From: a virus
Length of the DNA stretch: 52,953 nucleotides
Virus record (IMG/VR): IMGVR_UViG_3300022919_000001
Location: 1 to 52,953 of that record
Direction: 5' to 3' (one strand)
Part shown: positions 2,710 through 33,688 of the stretch, piece by piece
How the letters are laid out: each line of letters starts with the position of its first letter
Position numbering within the stretch: position 1 is the stretch's first letter
Position numbers and translations under genes: made by a program
The notes under the pieces: generated by a model
The model's input: only the letters and a program-made list of their open reading frames with translations
What the model was told of the DNA's origin: nothing
Databases searched by the model: none

Positions 2710-3254
2710 TACATTACATATCCCCCTACTCCACCTCAAAGAACATCGGCAAAGCCATTAACGATAATATTCGCCAACTTAACCCAAATGATGAAGATTG
2801 GCTAGTTTTAATCGACCATGACGTTCTATTTTTGCTCCCCGACACAAAAGCACGCCTCGAACGCATCCTATCAACAACAAATTACGACATTTTAGGCTGC
2901 GTAACAAACCGCTTAGCCATGCCGTACCAATGCGTACAGGGAATGTTCGACGAAACTGATATTCGCAAACACATTGAAGTAGCCCAAATCCTAGAATCAG
3001 ACGAAGTACAACCCTACATGCACATTTTAGCAGCATTTTGCCTATGCTTTCAGGTCAAAACGTGGAGAAAATTAGGTGGATTTGCCGAAAATAGCATACA
3101 ATTTGATACTACTTTCTCGCTAATGGCTGAAAAGAGTGGGTTAAAGAAGGGATTAATGACGGGAGTTTACCTATTTCACGCATACAGGATGTGGTCTGAC
3201 AACCCTAAACAGGACGTGGCGCATTTGCTTCCTGATATACCGCAGCAAGAGTAG
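2706..3254 (+). CDS. GT-A fold glycosyltransferase-like protein
   Basis: WLVLIDHDVLFL (DxD-like) and the overall GT2-like layout. The TTG start is coupled to the upstream ORF. Confidence 0.6.
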   Translation: MIHYISPYSTSKNIGKAINDNIRQLNPNDEDWLVLIDHDVLFLLPDTKARLERILSTTNYDILGCVTNRLAMPYQCVQGMFDETDIRKHIEVAQILESDEVQPYMHILAAFCLCFQVKTWRKLGGFAENSIQFDTTFSLMAEKSGLKKGLMTGVYLFHAYRMWSDNPKQDVAHLLPDIPQQE

Positions 3255-4569
3255 TTTTACCAGTTTGCACGTAATGCTCATTCATATACTGCTCTTTTTT
3301 CTCACCGTATTTAAGCACAGCCCTCATTTCATTTGGTGTTAAAACTCCTTCAGGTATAGATTTAAGGTAATCTGCAACATCTTTCATGTTTACCGCCATT
3401 TCAGGTAGCTGCGTATAGTCCCACTCTAAAGCATCTACGCCGTAACCCTCTGCCAACATGATTGTAAACGCCTCGCCTATCGCATCGCATATAGGTGCAA
3501 TAGCATCATAAACTAATTTAAGGGTTTCAGTGCCAACATTGTTATCTGTGCTTGCCTTTTGGTTGTGATAGCTTAGTGGCACATGGTATGCACGGTAAAC
3601 ATCTTCTTCACTTACGCCGATAACCTCTAATAATTTCAAATCACCAATTGGCAATCCTATTTGCTGCCATGCTAAAGATATTGAAGAGGGAAAAACACGG
3701 CTTAACTCGTCGTTTGACTTGCGAGCTTCAACCATTTTATCCTTTAGCTGCGTCTTTTGTTCAGGCGTTAACTGATCCTCTTTATCCCTCGGAGATAGCA
3801 CACCAAATACACCACCATTCTTAGCTTGCTTGGTAGTTTGCGTCTTACCCTCTTTAATTGCCCGTAAACTTTCAGCATAAGCCCTTAATGGCGCAACACC
3901 GTACAGATATTGCATTGTCCTGTCAACTGGGGCAAAGTTTCCTGTCTTAATATGCTGTATTTCTTCTTTCTCAAACCTTTTCAGGTCATAGCTTTGCAGA
4001 ATGTAGCCACGTATTGGGTTTAAAAAATCCTCCACATCAGCAGCAATCTCCATATTAGGAAAGCAGAACAACTCTTTTACTTTCCCTTTGCCAACTCTAA
4101 TCGGGTGAACGTAGGTATTACCCTGGTATAAGTAGCTTAGTATTGTAGTCCACATTAATTGCGTACCTGTTTGGTATGGATTAGCTTTGCCGTTAGTAAG
4201 CAATGCTTTCAAATCTGAAATATCCACCTCCTCAATAGCCAGCATTTTCATTACGTATGCTTGAACTGGATCTGTTTTTGCCAATTCTTTAGCCTTTTGC
4301 AGTTTAGCTTTATCTTTTATCTTATATCCAACAATGGGGCAGTTAAGTACTTTTTTGGTTAACAAGTCGGTTACTTCGTACGTTGCGCCAATTGTTCTGA
4401 ACGTATTGTAATAGTCTATTGCATCGGGGTTAATAGTAGGTAAGGCGTTATTCAGCCCTATATTAATCATTTGCAAAGCATTGGCATAGCTAACTGCTGC
4501 CTTGCTTGCTATTGCCTCATTAACTTTTTTGTTAATCTGTGAGCCAAATATTAAATCTACTATTCCCAT
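3205..4569 (-). CDS. Portal protein (HK97-family-like)
   Basis: 454 aa, downstream of the terminase genes on the same strand. The C-terminal ..LTPNEMRAVL.. is typical of portals. Confidence 0.8.
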   Translation of the reverse strand: MGIVDLIFGSQINKKVNEAIASKAAVSYANALQMINIGLNNALPTINPDAIDYYNTFRTIGATYEVTDLLTKKVLNCPIVGYKIKDKAKLQKAKELAKTDPVQAYVMKMLAIEEVDISDLKALLTNGKANPYQTGTQLMWTTILSYLYQGNTYVHPIRVGKGKVKELFCFPNMEIAADVEDFLNPIRGYILQSYDLKRFEKEEIQHIKTGNFAPVDRTMQYLYGVAPLRAYAESLRAIKEGKTQTTKQAKNGGVFGVLSPRDKEDQLTPEQKTQLKDKMVEARKSNDELSRVFPSSISLAWQQIGLPIGDLKLLEVIGVSEEDVYRAYHVPLSYHNQKASTDNNVGTETLKLVYDAIAPICDAIGEAFTIMLAEGYGVDALEWDYTQLPEMAVNMKDVADYLKSIPEGVLTPNEMRAVLKYGEKKEQYMNEHYVQTGKTTLAAVYQEANAPRPV

Positions 4570-4595: not shown

Positions 4596-4630
4596 ATAAA
4601 ACAAAAAACCCAACTTTTTAGGGTTGGGTT
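4596..4630 (-). terminator. Rho-independent terminator downstream of the tRNA-like genes
   Basis: Stem AACCCAAC/GTTGGGTT (4607-4614 with 4623-4630), followed on the minus strand by a T-rich run. Confidence 0.55.
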
Positions 4631-4675
4631 ACAAAAGTAGCAGGATAATGTTTCTAAATCGCTCTTTCACAAAAT

Positions 4676-4779
4676 CCTATAATGGTGGACTCGAACCACC
4701 AAACCAAAGATCATATTTAACGACGACTTTATGGCGCTTCCGTCAATCTACTGCTGGTTACCTGTTTCGCCAATTATAT
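4676..4779 (-). tRNA. tRNA-like gene B (non-canonical, about 103 nt)
   Basis: T arm GGTGG-TTCGAGT-CCACC. All-AT acceptor ATATAAT/ATTATAG with a 1:72 mismatch. TGGCGA follows the acceptor. No 5-7-5 anticodon arm was found by eye. Confidence 0.35.
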
Positions 4780-4794
4780 TTTATACTACTTTAG

Positions 4795-4892
4795 TGCAAC
4801 GGGTAGGATTCGAACCTACAACACGGAGATACCTCGAAATATCTTTATCCGCACCAGCTACCTGTTACGTCTACCAATTGCGCCACCGTTGC
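4795..4892 (-). tRNA. tRNA-like gene A (Leu-type D arm, 97 nt, no canonical anticodon arm)
   Basis: Acceptor GCAACGG/CCGTTGC, D arm TGGCGCAATTGGTAGACGT, T arm GTAGG-TTCGAAT-CCTAC. The 47-nt central part lacks a 5-7-5 arm. Confidence 0.5.
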
Positions 4893-4966
4893 TTTTTAAA
4901 AAAGGATAAATCAGCCTTGCGCTTCATTATCCCCATACCTAAACGTTAAATGAAGATTTTGTTAGT

Positions 4967-5263
4967 TTAGTCGTCAAAAGTTTGTCTATTGCTATCATAG
5001 TGAGGAATTAATTCAATAGCCTTTAACACATCGGTTATATTATAGGCCATTAAACTACCATCAAAGAAGTCAACTATCAACCCATCGGGTTTAGTTATAT
5101 CTTCCCAACTTGGAAAACAATGGTCGTTATCATCAATAAATACAGAAACATCCCATCCGCCTTCTCTACCTGTAGAATAATAACTTATCGGTTCAAACTC
5201 AATAAATGTAGGCTTATAGCCTTTAGCGATTAACGCTTTCTCTATCTTTTGTTTATTTTTCAT
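4967..5263 (-). CDS. Hypothetical protein
   Basis: ORF track; last gene of a coupled chain of small minus-strand genes. Confidence 0.55.
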   Translation of the reverse strand: MKNKQKIEKALIAKGYKPTFIEFEPISYYSTGREGGWDVSVFIDDNDHCFPSWEDITKPDGLIVDFFDGSLMAYNITDVLKAIELIPHYDSNRQTFDD

Positions 5264-6401: not shown

Positions 6402-7562
6402 TCACCAGCCGAAATCAACTTCTTTAGGCACATTAATATTCAACTTATTCAAAGCAACGTAACGCAGCGGATCAATTAAGTGATTAAACTTATCAATAGG
6501 CACATTCATTGCCCTGCCTGTCACCCTATCAACTTTCCATTTGTATTTACCCAACTCCGAACGTAGGTTAACTGAATTTCGGGTTACATTAATTTTGTAC
6601 CGCCTCAATATATCAATGCCGTTCTTAATACTATCCGGCCCTTTATTGGCACCGTAAACATTCAAACCCAATTGCTTTAGTTCCTCAATACTTTTCGGCT
6701 CTGCACTATCGGCAATTATCTCATCGTTACCAACAATACCCTTTAGTTCCCTATGTATATCAGGATTAGTAAGCCCTGTTTGATATATCAATTCATTAAC
6801 CCATAATTCACCATTTTGCAAGTAAACAGCTAATGCGCCCGTCTCATCATTCGTAAATCCAAAATCAAGTCCATAAGCCACTAATTTCGCATCTTGTGGT
6901 ATTGCTTCACAAACAAACCAATTAGATATTACCAAACCTTCGATTTTACCCGTCAATCCTCTTGCGTAAACCCTCCAAAGTTCTTGGTCGACATCTTTTA
7001 ACGCTTCGATTTTATCTCTCGTTATATCGCTTAAAAATGGGTTGTGGCGGTGGTCGCTAATTATGAGCTGCGTTGCTGGCTTTCCGAGTAGGTTATCATG
7101 CACCCAAAAAGTGTTGTTTGGGTTATAGTCAATATATATCCGTCGGGAGGTTCTTAATGATAATTCGGTATAAAATTCAAATGGTATACCGTTAGCTTCG
7201 TTAATGAATAGGTAGTCACGTTTGCCGGATTTAGCGTCCTGTGCATTATCATAAGAATTGAACTCAATCTTACTGCCGTTCTTCATGTAGAATATTCGGT
7301 CTGCCTTGTTGTAAGACTTAACCAAATACTTTAATTCCTCGCTACCATCATAGATATTAAGCGCATCCCTTAAAGCACCAACTTTTAAGTTTGGTATATC
7401 CTGACCTACTACCGTAACCACCCGCTTAGGTTCAGCACACGCCAAAACAAAAAGCACCTGCATTATGGCATAAGTCTTGCCGCTGCTGGTGCCTCCCTGA
7501 TTAACTACTACATGTCCTGTAGCATTATAGTTCGCTAAATATAAATCAGTCGCTTGAAACAT
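6402..7562 (-). CDS. terL: Terminase large subunit
   Basis: Walker A GGTSSGKTYA near the N-terminus, 386 aa, overlaps the small subunit gene, upstream of portal. Confidence 0.85.
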   Translation of the reverse strand: MFQATDLYLANYNATGHVVVNQGGTSSGKTYAIMQVLFVLACAEPKRVVTVVGQDIPNLKVGALRDALNIYDGSEELKYLVKSYNKADRIFYMKNGSKIEFNSYDNAQDAKSGKRDYLFINEANGIPFEFYTELSLRTSRRIYIDYNPNNTFWVHDNLLGKPATQLIISDHRHNPFLSDITRDKIEALKDVDQELWRVYARGLTGKIEGLVISNWFVCEAIPQDAKLVAYGLDFGFTNDETGALAVYLQNGELWVNELIYQTGLTNPDIHRELKGIVGNDEIIADSAEPKSIEELKQLGLNVYGANKGPDSIKNGIDILRRYKINVTRNSVNLRSELGKYKWKVDRVTGRAMNVPIDKFNHLIDPLRYVALNKLNINVPKEVDFGW

Positions 7563-30012: not shown

Positions 30013-30968
30013 TAGTTCGTTATAATTGTTGGAGTGGTAGCAGAAAATGTACTGTTAGATGTATACACGTTATAGTTTTGGGTGTATCCGTTAACGTTAG
30101 TAACCGAAACGACCGTTTTTGTAAATGCACCTATGCTTTCAAAACCACCCACCAAAATGGATGTTAAGTCACCTAATGAGGCTGCATAAGCGTAATACAC
30201 ATAATTGCTGCCGCTCGATGTAATTGTAAAGCCCGTATTTGCTTTGGCTCCATTAAGTTGTTTTTCGCCCCCTGCAACAGCAAGAATTATCGTATTATCA
30301 GGTGTTGCACTTGCTGATCTACCCCAATATCTACCGGGCAACCAAGTATCGGTAGTTGTGGCTATAGCTGTTTTACCATCCGATGTGGTAACGGTAAGCG
30401 TATAAGTCCGATTAGTATTACTTGGCGTTGTTACCGATTGAGTGCCTGAAACGGTTCCAGGCTGTGCAGGTTGAGAGCCAAAAACACTTAACGATCCGGG
30501 ACTAATAACTGCCGTACTTATTGTGGCTGTAGCCGCTTGCCTGCCATAACTCCACGAAAGACTGTGTGTCGCATCAGATACGCCTAACTCATAAGTTGTA
30601 CCCCCGCTTAATGATGCTGTAGGTACTTGTGTTTGTTTATATAATTGATAAAATACCTCTTGCGGCGTACCTGTTGTTACAACCTGCCCAACTGTCGGAA
30701 CACTGCTTACTGTCCATCCATTTACGGTGCCGCCTGCTGTTATAGCCGCCTGTGTTGCGGTGCCAATATAGTCATTAAACTGCTTCCCGGTAACCAGTTG
30801 AAAGTATTTGCCCAACGTAGTATTATACATCTGCACCTGTGTGCTATCCTTATACCGCCAACCAGTTGGCGTAAAGGCTGTTGAGCCGCTAATTTGCGTG
30901 GTTGAGTTTGTCGGTGCTTGCCCCAATGAAGCAAGGGGTAATAGGAGTAAGATTAAGAGTTTACGCAT
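30012..30968 (-). CDS. Thr/Ser-rich protein (318 aa) with Sec-type signal peptide, fibre-associated
   Basis: Leader MRKLLILLLLPLASLGQ. Its stop overlaps the start of the 941-aa ORF by 1 nt. Confidence 0.55.
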   Translation of the reverse strand: MRKLLILLLLPLASLGQAPTNSTTQISGSTAFTPTGWRYKDSTQVQMYNTTLGKYFQLVTGKQFNDYIGTATQAAITAGGTVNGWTVSSVPTVGQVVTTGTPQEVFYQLYKQTQVPTASLSGGTTYELGVSDATHSLSWSYGRQAATATISTAVISPGSLSVFGSQPAQPGTVSGTQSVTTPSNTNRTYTLTVTTSDGKTAIATTTDTWLPGRYWGRSASATPDNTIILAVAGGEKQLNGAKANTGFTITSSGSNYVYYAYAASLGDLTSILVGGFESIGAFTKTVVSVTNVNGYTQNYNVYTSNSTFSATTPTIITN

Positions 30969-33348: not shown

Positions 33349-33466
33349 GCGGGGGTAGCTTAAGCCACAAGAGCATAAGGTAAGTGTACATTAGCCTTAC
33401 TATGGTAGTGGATGGCAGAGCAAGGCGGTTATGCCCAGTGTGAAAGTTCAAATCTTTCTCCCCGCT
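33349..33466 (+). tRNA. tRNA-like gene C (about 118 nt, non-canonical)
   Basis: Acceptor GCGGGGG/TCCCCGC, D arm GCTT-AAGCCACAA-GAGC, T arm GAAAG-TTCAAAT-CTTTC. The anticodon position holds a 10-bp hairpin with a GTAC tetraloop, followed by a 42-nt extra region. Confidence 0.45.
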
Positions 33467-33504
33467 CAAATTAAACAGGCACCCACCTGCTAAATGGGTA
33501 AAAT

Positions 33505-33646
33505 GGGGTAGTACATGGATGTTTTGGGCTGTAAGTAAGTGCGCAATGAACGCAGCCGAACGAAACGAAAAGCGGATTGATTACCTGCACGTAGTTTTGG
33601 AAACGTAGACACACAACGTTTTCGGGTTCGATCCCCGAGTACTCCA
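33505..33646 (+). tRNA. tRNA-like gene D (about 142 nt, non-canonical)
   Basis: T arm TCGGG-TTCGATC-CCCGA. 3' acceptor GTACTCC pairs with GGGGTAG at 33505 (one G:U pair, one mismatch). The interior is long and unassigned. Confidence 0.3.
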
Positions 33647-33688
33647 CACTATCGCCAAGGTAGTATAATTGTGTTTGGTTTAGGTTTA

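What the first reader, a model, noticed from the sequence alone, without database searches (positions are those of the whole stretch)
4676..4892. Pair of tRNA-like genes with canonical acceptor, D and T arms but no canonical anticodon arm
- **Element A** (complement 4795..4892, 97 nt):
  - perfect 7-bp acceptor GCAACGG/CCGTTGC;
  - a D arm nearly identical to bacterial class II tRNA-Leu (TGGCGCAATTGGTAGACGT);
  - T arm GTAGG-TTCGAAT-CCTAC.
- I scanned every 17-nt window of A's 47-nt centre and found no 5-bp/7-nt/5-bp arm. The best hairpin is AGATA[TTTCGAGG]TATCT, which has an 8-nt loop with U at the second position, embedded in a longer CGG..CCG helix.
- **Element B** (complement 4676..4779):
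  - T arm GGTGG-TTCGAGT-CCACC;
  - an all-AT acceptor with a 1:72 mismatch;
  - the segment AACAGGTA(A/G)C shared with A, so the two look like diverged paralogues.
- A terminator follows the pair (4596..4630).
- Possible explanations:
  - tRNAs with insertions or an expanded anticodon loop (quadruplet decoding);
  - degraded tRNA genes;
  - tRNA mimics, for example decoys for tRNA-targeting host nucleases or for modification enzymes.
- My folding is manual and could be wrong.
Basis: partly seen in the sequence, partly recalled or inferred. Interest (0 to 1): 0.6.

Follow-up and report, generated by a model that had tools for sequence, protein, structure and literature searches.

The report
Anticodon-less tRNA-shaped phage RNA genes
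Two adjacent genes of this leaf-litter phage encode RNAs that keep the upper body of a leucine-type tRNA but cannot read codons. One belongs to an apparently undescribed, very conserved family of crAss-like and other phages in which the anticodon loop is base-paired to an enlarged variable arm. Its job is unknown.

Summary
Element A (4795-4892, minus strand) and element B (4676-4779, minus strand) have tRNA acceptor, D and T arms but no 5/7/5 anticodon arm. ARAGORN finds no tRNA in the whole phage. Rfam's tRNA model accepts A only by skipping 39 nt.

B is not a decayed tRNA. It belongs to a family I found in about 110 viral and metagenome contigs: crAss-like phages, 140-225 kb gut phages, and marine and soil phages. 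The family shows 18 different acceptor stems that covary, and a nearly invariant centre. Covariation supports two interlocking helices. The 6-nt "anticodon loop" pairs with the apical loop of an 8-9 bp variable arm, forming a pseudoknot, so the RNA cannot decode.

A is a Leu-type class II frame with A73, a 3-bp mini-hairpin in place of the anticodon arm and a long bulged variable arm. I found only one partial relative.

The A+B cassette is absent from the two closest phages. B often lies beside the terminase gene or inside tRNA clusters, and in crAss-like phages it sits directly upstream of the amber-suppressor tRNA.

The closest precedents are the T5 RNA1 and T4 species 1 stable RNAs, whose function is unknown. 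This scan has noted similar anticodon-less tRNA-Leu-shaped RNAs on other DNA. The most likely role is a tRNA-processed stable RNA whose module binds a conserved host factor; that role is inferred.

The parts
4795..4892 (-). Element A: 98-nt tRNA-Leu-shaped RNA gene without an anticodon arm. Acceptor 4886-4892 pairs with 4796-4802. Discriminator A is at 4795.
   Evidence: Rfam tRNA 36.0 bits with 39 nt in place of the anticodon arm. ARAGORN finds nothing. Scores 38.9 bits against the B-family model through its frame only.
4867..4885 (-). A: U8-G9 plus a class II Leu-type D arm (3-bp stem, loop carrying G18 G19).
   Evidence: Sequence. Alignment with phage tRNA-Leu genes. Same frame as the SPP1 and T5 RNA1 tRNA-like RNAs.
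4855..4864 (-). A: 3-bp mini-hairpin with a 4-nt loop, at the place of the anticodon arm.
   Evidence: RNAfold minimum-free-energy and centroid structures. Single sequence, so no covariation test was possible.
4823..4852 (-). A: long arm next to the T arm: 4 bp, a 4-nt bulge, 5 bp and an 8-nt loop. This is the position of a class II variable arm.
   Evidence: RNAfold. Three nucleotides separate it from the T stem, as in class II tRNAs.
4803..4819 (-). A: T arm, 5 bp with a UUCGAAU loop.
4676..4779 (-). Element B: 104-nt member of a conserved phage family of tRNA-shaped RNAs with a pseudoknot. Acceptor 4773-4779 pairs with 4677-4683 (A1.G72 mismatch). Discriminator G is at 4676.
   Evidence: Covariance model R1: 100.3 bits, E 3e-25. 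Homologue in crAssphage cr60_1.
4736..4751 (-). B: 16-nt remnant of the anticodon arm. It has two outer pairs, three purine-purine oppositions, and a 6-nt loop whose 5 nt (4741-4745) form helix S1.
   Evidence: Outer pairs are 100% pairable with one-sided changes only. S1 covaries.
4721..4725 (-). B: 3' strand of S1, lying in the apical loop of the variable arm.
   Evidence: Across the family, S1 shows A-U changed to G-C in 3 sequences, G-C changed to A-U in 1, and U.G or U-A in 35 and 18.
4704..4734 (-). B: enlarged variable arm, helix S2 (4727-4734 pairs with 4704-4711). It encloses the S1 3' strand and an A/U-rich loop.
   Evidence: S2 pair types: C-G 31 / U-A 18 / A-U 6 at one pair; C-G 53 / U-A 3 at another; U.U changed to C-G, U-A or U.G at a third.
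4684..4700 (-). B: T arm, 5 bp with a UUCGAGU loop.
   Evidence: Four of the five T-stem pairs covary in the family.
4607..4630 (-). Intrinsic terminator after the pair, just upstream of the portal gene (3205-4569, minus strand).
   Evidence: Terminator scan. Portal identified by PHROGs.
4898..4932 (-). Weak hairpin plus T run between the upstream ORF (4967-5263, minus strand) and A.
   Evidence: Read from the sequence. Not called by the terminator scan.

Best explanation
A and B are genes for stable, non-decoding RNAs derived from class II (leucine-type) tRNAs.

Shown:
- Both keep the acceptor/T minihelix, the D arm and the elbow nucleotides (U8, A14, G18 G19, T loop). These are what RNase P, RNase Z, the CCA-adding enzyme and other tRNA-binding proteins read.
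- In B's family, the 16-nt remnant of the anticodon arm presents a 6-nt loop that pairs with the apical loop of an enlarged 8-9 bp variable arm. This is an H-type pseudoknot. No anticodon is free, and the centre is almost invariant while the acceptor and T stems drift by compensatory changes.
- A has a 3-bp mini-hairpin instead of the anticodon arm and a 9-bp bulged variable arm.
- The A+B pair is an accessory cassette in the late (terminase-portal) region.

Inferred:
- The two RNAs are cut out of the late transcript like tRNAs and accumulate.
- The tRNA frame gives processing, stability and access to tRNA-binding machinery.
- The conserved module is the working part: it binds, and so titrates, blocks or recruits, a conserved host (Bacteroidota) factor of the tRNA, translation or defence machinery.

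My odds:
- B is a real functional RNA: 0.9.
- B has the pseudoknot: 0.85.
- B is non-decoding: 0.9.
- A is a maintained gene: 0.6.
- The binding/titration mechanism: about 0.35.
For: Family size and conservation:
- A 16-mer of B's centre occurs in 64 IMG/VR contigs, 59 of them tRNA-shaped.
- Wider patterns add metagenome contigs, 2 MAG contigs and core variants.
- The 49 distinct sequences carry 18 different acceptor stems. Mean column conservation is 0.53 for the acceptor against 0.95 for the D arm and centre.

Structure (56 distinct sequences):
- 92.1% of cells are paired, against 76.4% in shuffles.
- 16 pairs show double changes; 0 of 500 shuffles reach this.
- S1 and S2 each have at least 2 covarying pairs.
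- Sliding the partner strand drops pairing to 36-68%.

Frame:
- The frame is Leu-type. In a Chitinophagaceae MAG that carries B, the best host matches to the B model are tRNA-Leu (42.1 and 35.7 bits), and its anticodon-stem 5' strand resembles B's.

Genomic context:
- B is co-oriented with neighbouring genes.
- It lies 8 nt upstream of tRNA(CUA) in 7 of 7 crAss-type loci.
- It follows tRNA-Leu(UAA) in the large gut phages.
- It lies within 2 kb of the terminase large-subunit gene in 5 independent lineages.
- In L026 it has its own TAnnTTTG-type box, inside a 38-nt flanking duplication.
- The cassette is absent between the same two genes in L067 and upstream of portal in L066.

Precedents:
- T5 RNA1 is annotated 'tRNA-like stable RNA with unknown functions'. 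T4 rnaC is annotated 'small, stable RNA'. Both align to the same frame.
Against: - There is no expression data.
- The binding partner is unknown and nothing here points to one.
- Core conservation is inflated by ascertainment, because members were found by exact core or D-arm words.
- A has no family. No homologue was found in IMG/VR or GenBank phages. The only relative is one 58-nt near-identical piece with a different acceptor strand in another leaf-litter sample. Its fold rests on one sequence, with a z-score of -1.25.
- The window's B is the weakest member of its family: a 2-bp D stem, an A/U acceptor with a 1:72 mismatch, and one broken S2 pair.
- No promoter box lies directly upstream of A.
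Confidence: 0.5

Rival explanations
1. Aminoacylated but non-decoding tRNA-like RNAs. A would be charged by LeuRS and B by LeuRS or SerRS. They would then act as an amino-acid donor, as a sink for synthetase or EF-Tu, or as a codon-independent entrant into the ribosomal A site, because in B the anticodon-like loop is already paired to a built-in codon-like strand.
For: [quoted passage not shown] The whole anticodon arm can be deleted with only a 2.5-fold loss of affinity (PMC2377443).
- A has A73 and all of these core elements.
- B keeps the core and a long variable arm. SerRS reads the long variable arm (my own knowledge of bacterial tRNA-Ser identity, not tested here).
- S1 pairs the loop triplet with a matching triplet in the variable loop.
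Against: - B's discriminator varies: G 27, A 11, U 7, C 4 of 49. A73G/U/C costs LeuRS 45-143-fold.
- The acceptor stems share no identity pair, and no G3:U70 is present.
- The S2+S1 rod of about 14 bp is longer than a 5-bp anticodon stem.
- No CCA is encoded, which is neutral.
- No charging data exist.
Confidence: 0.2
2. Decoys or inhibitors aimed at host anti-phage enzymes that attack tRNAs: anticodon nucleases, or toxins that modify or cut the acceptor end.
For: - The genes are accessory and patchily distributed.
- They sit in late-gene neighbourhoods.
- The tRNA upper body is intact.
- The general precedent of phage tRNA genes countering tRNA-targeting defences is my own knowledge, not tested here.
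Against: - No anticodon loop is exposed, so this is a poor decoy for anticodon nucleases.
- An acceptor-end decoy would not need an invariant 50-nt pseudoknot.
- No defence gene or counter-defence partner is linked in the loci examined.
Confidence: 0.12
3. Decayed tRNA genes (pseudogenes) without function.
For: - A has no detectable family.
- The window's B has a weakened D stem and acceptor.
- Truncated 98-nt B variants and tRNA-Leu fragments exist in the large gut phages.
Against: - For B: about 110 loci with compensatory changes in four helices.
- For A: perfect acceptor and T stems with an exact T loop, whereas random decay would hit these too.
- A second sample holds A's core (2 differences in 58 nt) on a different acceptor strand.
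Confidence: 0.08
4. True decoding tRNAs of unusual build. A would use its 8-nt loop (quadruplet or UCG anticodon). Alternatively, both are tRNA genes with short intervening sequences that are removed.
For: - Rfam's tRNA model aligns both A and the cr60_1 copy of B with an 'insert'.
- ARAGORN at low threshold proposes a 4-nt anticodon for A and a 29-nt intron for B.
Against: - The ARAGORN models are mutually inconsistent and use poor stems.
- In B, the outer two pairs of the putative anticodon stem are unpaired in 43 and 37 of 49 sequences. The third nucleotide covaries with the 'insert' instead.
- Sequence 3' of the 'insert' is variable, so no conserved anticodon loop would result.
- No bulge-helix-bulge or group I features are present.
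- A's loop sits on a 9-bp bulged arm offset from the core.
Confidence: 0.04
5. A packaging-associated RNA that works with terminase or portal, as the phi29 pRNA does.
For: - B lies within 2 kb of the terminase large-subunit gene in 61 of 110 loci, representing 5 independent lineages and 3 different terminase families. In the window it lies between the terminase and portal genes.
- SPP1's tRNA-like RNA also lies in the head-gene operon.
Against: - The RNA centre is invariant, while terminase and portal are unrelated at sequence level across the carriers.
- The large gut phages keep B in tRNA arrays away from terminase.
- Module boundaries are common landing sites for accessory genes.
Confidence: 0.05

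Closest known systems
Phage T5 RNA1 (GenBank AY543070, misc_RNA 30501-30644, 'tRNA-like stable RNA with unknown functions')
   Same: - Encoded among tRNA genes.
- Has a Leu-type D arm, a T arm and an acceptor, with a large block (76 nt) in place of the anticodon arm when aligned to model R1.
- Function unknown.
   Different: - No sequence similarity in the centre.
- Its host is a proteobacterium.
- It scores only 18.5 bits with the B model.
Phage T4 species 1 and species 2 RNAs (rnaC, rnaD; NC_000866 70908-71171)
   Same: - A tandem pair of small stable RNAs at the end of a tRNA cluster.
- The 3' 92 nt of rnaC align as an acceptor, a T arm and a long hairpin next to the T arm.
- Annotated only as small, stable RNAs, with no function given.
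   Different: - Different sizes (139 and 119 nt).
- No shared centre.
- rnaD does not match the frame.
Class II bacterial tRNA-Leu (Rfam RF00005)
   Same: - Shares the D arm, U8, A14, A15, G18 G19, the T loop, and a long arm directly 5' of the T stem.
- Host tRNA-Leu genes are the best cellular matches to the B model.
- A has A73.
   Different: - No 5/7/5 anticodon arm.
- In B the loop is locked to the variable arm.
- B's discriminator is not fixed.
Anticodon-less tRNA-Leu-shaped RNAs of Firmicutes phages (SPP1, phi3T), noted earlier in this scan
   Same: - Same design. The SPP1 copy (NC_004166 6647-6756, unannotated) shares A's frame almost letter for letter in the D arm and the inner acceptor.
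   Different: - The central modules are unrelated.
- Those notes are unpublished AI notes.
- B's module and its Bacteroidota-phage range are distinct.
tmRNA tRNA-like domain, and YrlA (bacterial Y RNA)
   Same: A tRNA upper half joined to a non-decoding domain that contains or adjoins pseudoknots or helices.
   Different: - tmRNA: no tag reading frame, no G3:U70, ARAGORN tmRNA search empty, Rfam 5.2 bits.
- YrlA: 14.7 bits against a gathering score of 69. In YrlA the RNA ends lie in the Ro-binding stem rather than at the acceptor (from memory, not tested here).

Membership tests
Canonical tRNA (Rfam RF00005) | 7-bp acceptor, D arm with G18 G19, 5-bp T stem with a T loop | tested here: met
   A: all perfect. 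B: acceptor 6 of 7, D stem 2 of 4, T arm perfect.
Canonical tRNA (Rfam RF00005) | Anticodon arm: 5-bp stem with a 7-nt loop presenting an anticodon | tested here: not met
   ARAGORN finds 0 genes in the window. Rfam skips 39 nt in A. In B's family the loop is paired in S1 and the stem's outer pairs fail.
Canonical tRNA (Rfam RF00005) | Score at or above the gathering threshold (29 bits) | tested here: inconclusive
   A scores 36.0 bits and the cr60_1 copy of B 35.2 bits, both through the frame only. The window's B has no hit.
tRNA gene with an intron | Excision leaves a conserved canonical anticodon arm; a splice motif is present (bulge-helix-bulge or group I core) | tested here: not met
   No consistent arm across 56 sequences. 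The ARAGORN intron models are inconsistent. No Rfam intron hit.
tmRNA | tRNA-Ala-like domain with G3:U70 plus a tag reading frame and pseudoknots | tested here: not met
   ARAGORN tmRNA search finds nothing. Rfam tmRNA scores 5.2 bits. Pair 3:70 is G-C, A-U, U-A, C-G or G-U (once), and G:U is not conserved there.
YrlA / bacterial Y RNA | Match to RF02553 | tested here: not met
   14.7 bits against a gathering score of 69, spanning A and B jointly.
Phage 'tRNA-like stable RNAs' (T5 RNA1, T4 species 1 type) | tRNA acceptor, D and T frame with a large non-anticodon centre, encoded with or next to tRNA genes | tested here: met
   Frame alignments of T5 RNA1 and T4 rnaC to R1. B lies in tRNA arrays or next to tRNA(CUA). 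This is a descriptive class, not a homology family.
Phage 'tRNA-like stable RNAs' (T5 RNA1, T4 species 1 type) | Detected as a stable processed RNA in infected cells | not testable with these tools
   No RNA run holds the locus.
B family (model R1, defined here) | Leu-type frame plus S1 (loop to variable-loop) and S2 (variable arm) helices, with the conserved centre | tested here: met
   Window B: 100.3 bits, S1 5 of 5 pairs, S2 5 of 8 standard pairs (U.U, A.C and G.A oppositions). Window A: 38.9 bits through the frame only, so A is not a member.
LeuRS substrate (leucine identity) | A73, the U8-A14, G18-U55 and G19-C56 core, and variable-arm orientation (PMC2377443) | tested here: inconclusive
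   A has A73 and the core nucleotides. B's family has A73 in only 11 of 49. Charging itself is not testable here.

The most novel reading that the evidence does not exclude
B-family RNAs are charged tRNA-shaped molecules that carry their own codon. The anticodon-like loop paired to the codon-like strand of the variable arm imitates a cognate codon-anticodon helix. This would let the RNA enter ribosomal A sites without an mRNA codon, in the way tmRNA-SmpB or an IRES pseudoknot does. Late in infection it could then rescue, stall or reprogram ribosomes, for example at reassigned stop codons in crAss-like phages, where the gene abuts the suppressor tRNA.
Probability: 0.06. Interest if true: 0.9.

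Novelty: new variant of a known kind. Interest (0 to 1): 0.6.

Why it matters
- Small tRNA-like stable RNAs of T4 and T5 are still annotated in GenBank without a function. As I recall, without checking here, they were first described decades ago.
- This locus shows the same design in Bacteroidota phages. It also gives a sharply defined, covariation-supported family that reaches into crAss-like phages, the most abundant viruses of the human gut, where it sits 8 nt from the amber-suppressor tRNA.
- The self-locked fold (anticodon loop paired to the variable arm) is a concrete structure that can be probed, mutated and used as bait. That makes the old question of what these RNAs do directly testable.
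- Standard tRNA finders miss these genes, and in the one GenBank phage record I found holding B (cr60_1) the gene is unannotated.

Tried and rejected
- **Intron or insertion reading:** ARAGORN with intron and low-score options gave Thr(GGU) with a 5-nt 'intron', Ile(GAU) with a 29-nt 'intron', and '?(UCGA)'. These models are inconsistent with each other and with the family alignment.
- **Rfam tRNA model's anticodon stem for B:** the outer two pairs are unpaired in most sequences. It is rejected in favour of S2.
- **Homologues of A:** four pattern scans of IMG/VR gave nothing or only chance hits in coding DNA. blastn against 50,697 phage records also found none.
- **Third tRNA-like element:** a pattern scan for the centre of the element at 33349-33466 gave 0 hits.
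- **Expression:** no RNA holder was listed for the locus.
- **Literature:** no paper or preprint describes such an RNA in crAss-like or other phages. No paper holds the core 14-mer. The 2023 catalogue of 10,006 viral structured RNAs mentions tRNA-like candidates only in general terms, and its supplements are not held.
- **Antisense ORFs:** 4731-4949 and 4624-4794 (plus strand) have no Pfam match.
- **RNAfold on single sequences:** z-scores were not significant. For B this is expected, because the fold is a pseudoknot.
- **16S rRNA resemblance:** an 8-nt identity of B's loop region to a 16S rRNA segment (recalled from memory) was judged too short to pursue.
- **T4 review:** PMC150520 could not be read.

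Full report
**1. Setting**

Its DNA is held by a leaf-litter metagenome run that may be its source.

The two elements lie on the minus strand between a 98-aa ORF (4967-5263) and the portal gene (3205-4569). The terminase large-subunit gene (6402-7562) is 1.6 kb upstream. A weak hairpin with a T run precedes A. A clear terminator (4607-4630) follows B. A and B are 15 nt apart.

**2. The observation**

ARAGORN calls no tRNA in the whole phage.

- **Element A.** Rfam's tRNA model accepts A (36.0 bits against a gathering score of 29) only by aligning acceptor, D arm and T arm and skipping 39 nt where 17 should be.
- **Element B.** B gets no Rfam match.
- **Forced models.** Pushing ARAGORN with intron or low-threshold options gives models that contradict each other.

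**3. B belongs to a large, conserved family**

blastn found one relative, in crAssphage cr60_1. It is unannotated and sits 8 nt upstream of a tRNA with anticodon CUA, followed by tRNA-Met and the terminase gene.

| Search | Result |
|---|---|
| 16-mer from the shared centre, IMG/VR | 64 contigs, 59 of them the same tRNA-shaped gene |
| Looser patterns, metagenome contigs | 55 contigs (a few are chance hits) |
| Looser patterns, species genomes | 2 MAG contigs |
| D-arm and other patterns | members with changed cores |
| GenBank phage records | 1 of 50,697 holds it |

The carriers fall into these groups:
- crAss-like phages;
- gut phage contigs of 140-225 kb, where B sits in arrays of up to 11 tRNA genes;
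- smaller phages from marine (TARA), wetland and soil samples.

The Chitinophagaceae MAG, the crAss-like carriers and a TAnnTTTG-type box in front of B in L026 point to Bacteroidota hosts. That host assignment is an inference.

**4. Structure of the B family**

I built covariance model R1 from 19 members. It retrieves all members at 89-127 bits. Ordinary tRNAs in the same loci score at most 35.5 bits.

On 56 distinct sequences:
- All 7 acceptor pairs and 4 of 5 T-stem pairs show compensatory changes.
- 92.1% of cells are paired, against 76.4% in shuffles.
- 16 pairs have double changes; 0 of 500 shuffles reach this.
- Sliding the partners lowers pairing to 36-68%.

Two further helices interlock.

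*Helix S1.* It joins five nucleotides of a 6-nt loop to the apical loop of the next arm.

| S1 pair behaviour | Counts |
|---|---|
| A-U replaced by G-C | 3 sequences with three different acceptor stems |
| G-C replaced by A-U | 1 counted sequence (plus three truncated relatives) |
| U.G or U-A | 35 and 18 |

*Helix S2.* It is the arm directly 5' of the T stem.

| S2 pair | Pair types |
|---|---|
| First variable pair | C-G 31, U-A 18, A-U 6 |
| Second variable pair | C-G 53, U-A 3 |
| Usual U.U opposition | becomes C-G, U-A or U.G in the long forms |
| A.C opposition | invariant |

The alternative stem used by the Rfam tRNA alignment fails in its two outer pairs (6 of 49 and 12 of 49 paired).

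Read against a host tRNA-Leu, the layout is that of a class II tRNA:
- After the D arm comes a 16-nt remnant of the anticodon arm.
- Its outer two pairs are always pairable (one-sided changes only, no statistical power).
- Its inner three oppositions are purine-purine.
- Its loop forms S1.
- S2 stands where the long variable arm stands, followed by two U and the T stem.

Long forms (125-136 nt) add a hairpin and an A-rich run in the variable loop. No anticodon is exposed in any member. I therefore regard decoding as excluded.

**5. What does not fit a normal tRNA identity**

The 49 distinct sequences carry 18 different acceptor stems. The discriminator is G in 27, A in 11, U in 7 and C in 4.

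LeuRS depends on A73. A73G/U/C costs 45-143-fold, whereas the whole anticodon arm can be removed with a 2.5-fold loss of affinity (PMC2377443). Uniform leucylation of the B family is therefore unlikely.

**6. Element A**

A has a Leu-type D arm, the core nucleotides and A73. It thus meets the published LeuRS requirements, but charging is untested.

Where the anticodon arm should be, it has 13-14 nt that can form a 3-bp hairpin with a 4-nt loop. Next comes a 9-bp arm with a 4-nt bulge and an 8-nt loop, then three nucleotides, then the T stem. That is the position of a class II variable arm, not of an anticodon arm.

- **Relation to B.** A scores 38.9 bits against R1 through the frame alone, so it is not a member of B's family.
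- **Homologues.** I found none in IMG/VR or GenBank phages.
- **One partial relative.** A 151-nt contig from another leaf-litter sample matches A's nucleotides 7-64 with 2 differences and then continues into a different acceptor strand. This hints at a conserved core on an exchangeable stem. It is one low-depth contig.
- **Similar frames elsewhere.** A's frame is nearly the same as that of an unannotated tRNA-like RNA in phage SPP1 and of T5 RNA1.

**7. Context**

- **Accessory cassette.** The two closest phages (portal identity 78% and 62%) lack the cassette. In L067 the same upstream ORF is followed after about 90 nt by portal.
- **Terminase neighbourhood.** In 61 of 110 loci, terminase is within 2 kb of B. 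These represent five independent lineages with three terminase families.
- **Upstream partner gene.** In two other small phages, B is preceded by another non-canonical tRNA-like gene (L097, L035). In the large gut phages it is preceded by tRNA-Leu(UAA).
- **Flanking repeats.** Direct repeats of 38 nt (L026) and 27 nt (L035) suggest insertion as a cassette.
- **Other tRNA-shaped genes.** The window has no decoding tRNA, but it has a second pair of tRNA-like elements near 33349-33650.

**8. Interpretation**

*Shown:*
- B is a conserved, structured, non-decoding tRNA-shaped RNA gene with a pseudoknot.
- A shares the design.
- The pair is accessory and lies in the late region.

*Inferred:*
- Both are processed and stabilised like tRNAs.
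- The invariant module is the working part, binding a conserved host factor.

*Rivals:* a charged non-decoding RNA (0.2), a defence decoy (0.12), decay (0.08, essentially for A only), unusual decoding or splicing (0.04), and a packaging RNA (0.05).

**9. Comparison with what is known**

T5 RNA1 and T4 species 1/2 are annotated stable RNAs of unknown function with the same frame.

This scan has noted 'anticodon-less tRNA-Leu-shaped' RNAs in phages of Firmicutes and others before. I checked only the SPP1 and T5 examples myself.

I found no paper describing B's family or its fold.

I therefore rate it a new variant of a known but unexplained kind.

Noticed in passing
window 33349-33466 (+) and about 33505-33650 (+): A second pair of tRNA-like elements sits in a 400-nt gap between ORFs. 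The first has a 7-bp acceptor, a T arm with a UUCAAAU loop, and a centre of about 65 nt (R1 21.5 bits). The second ends in a T arm plus acceptor-like strand (R1 13.2 bits). Neither has an Rfam hit or an ARAGORN call, and a 22-mer of the first has no IMG/VR match.
   Followed up: partly
L097 609-706 (-); L035 4409-4496 (-): Other small phages carry a second non-canonical tRNA-like gene just upstream of their B copy, as the window does. The L097 gene has the same T arm and discriminator as window A but a different centre.
   Followed up: partly
L026 5812-5849 and 5969-6006; L035 4235-4261 and 4496-4522: Direct repeats of 38 nt (95% identical) and 27 nt (78%) flank the B gene or the tRNA-like pair. 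In L026 the repeat carries a TAnnTTTG-type box. In L035 it duplicates the start of the downstream ORF. This looks like a cassette-insertion signature.
   Followed up: partly
L075, L077, L089, L105, L167, L074: Large gut phages hold shortened B variants (98 nt; the 3' strand of S2 is fused to the T stem) and B/tRNA-Leu hybrids or tRNA-Leu 3' fragments next to B. This suggests recombination between B and the neighbouring tRNA-Leu gene, or assembly artefacts.
   Followed up: no
L140 (SPP1, NC_004166) 6647-6756 (+): Model phage SPP1 has an unannotated 110-nt tRNA-Leu-shaped RNA without an anticodon arm, between genes 10 and 11 of the head operon. GenBank annotates overlapping hypothetical ORFs there.
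   Followed up: partly
window 4632-4639 (-): A TACTTTTG box (Bacteroidota -7 type) lies between B and the terminator stem, about 60 nt upstream of the portal start. It may be the portal promoter, overlapping the terminator.
   Followed up: no
L001 (cr60_1) and 6 other crAss-type loci: In crAss-like phages B always directly precedes the tRNA(CUA) amber-suppressor gene (spacing about 8 nt) and lies 234-1869 nt upstream of an intein-bearing terminase gene.
   Followed up: partly
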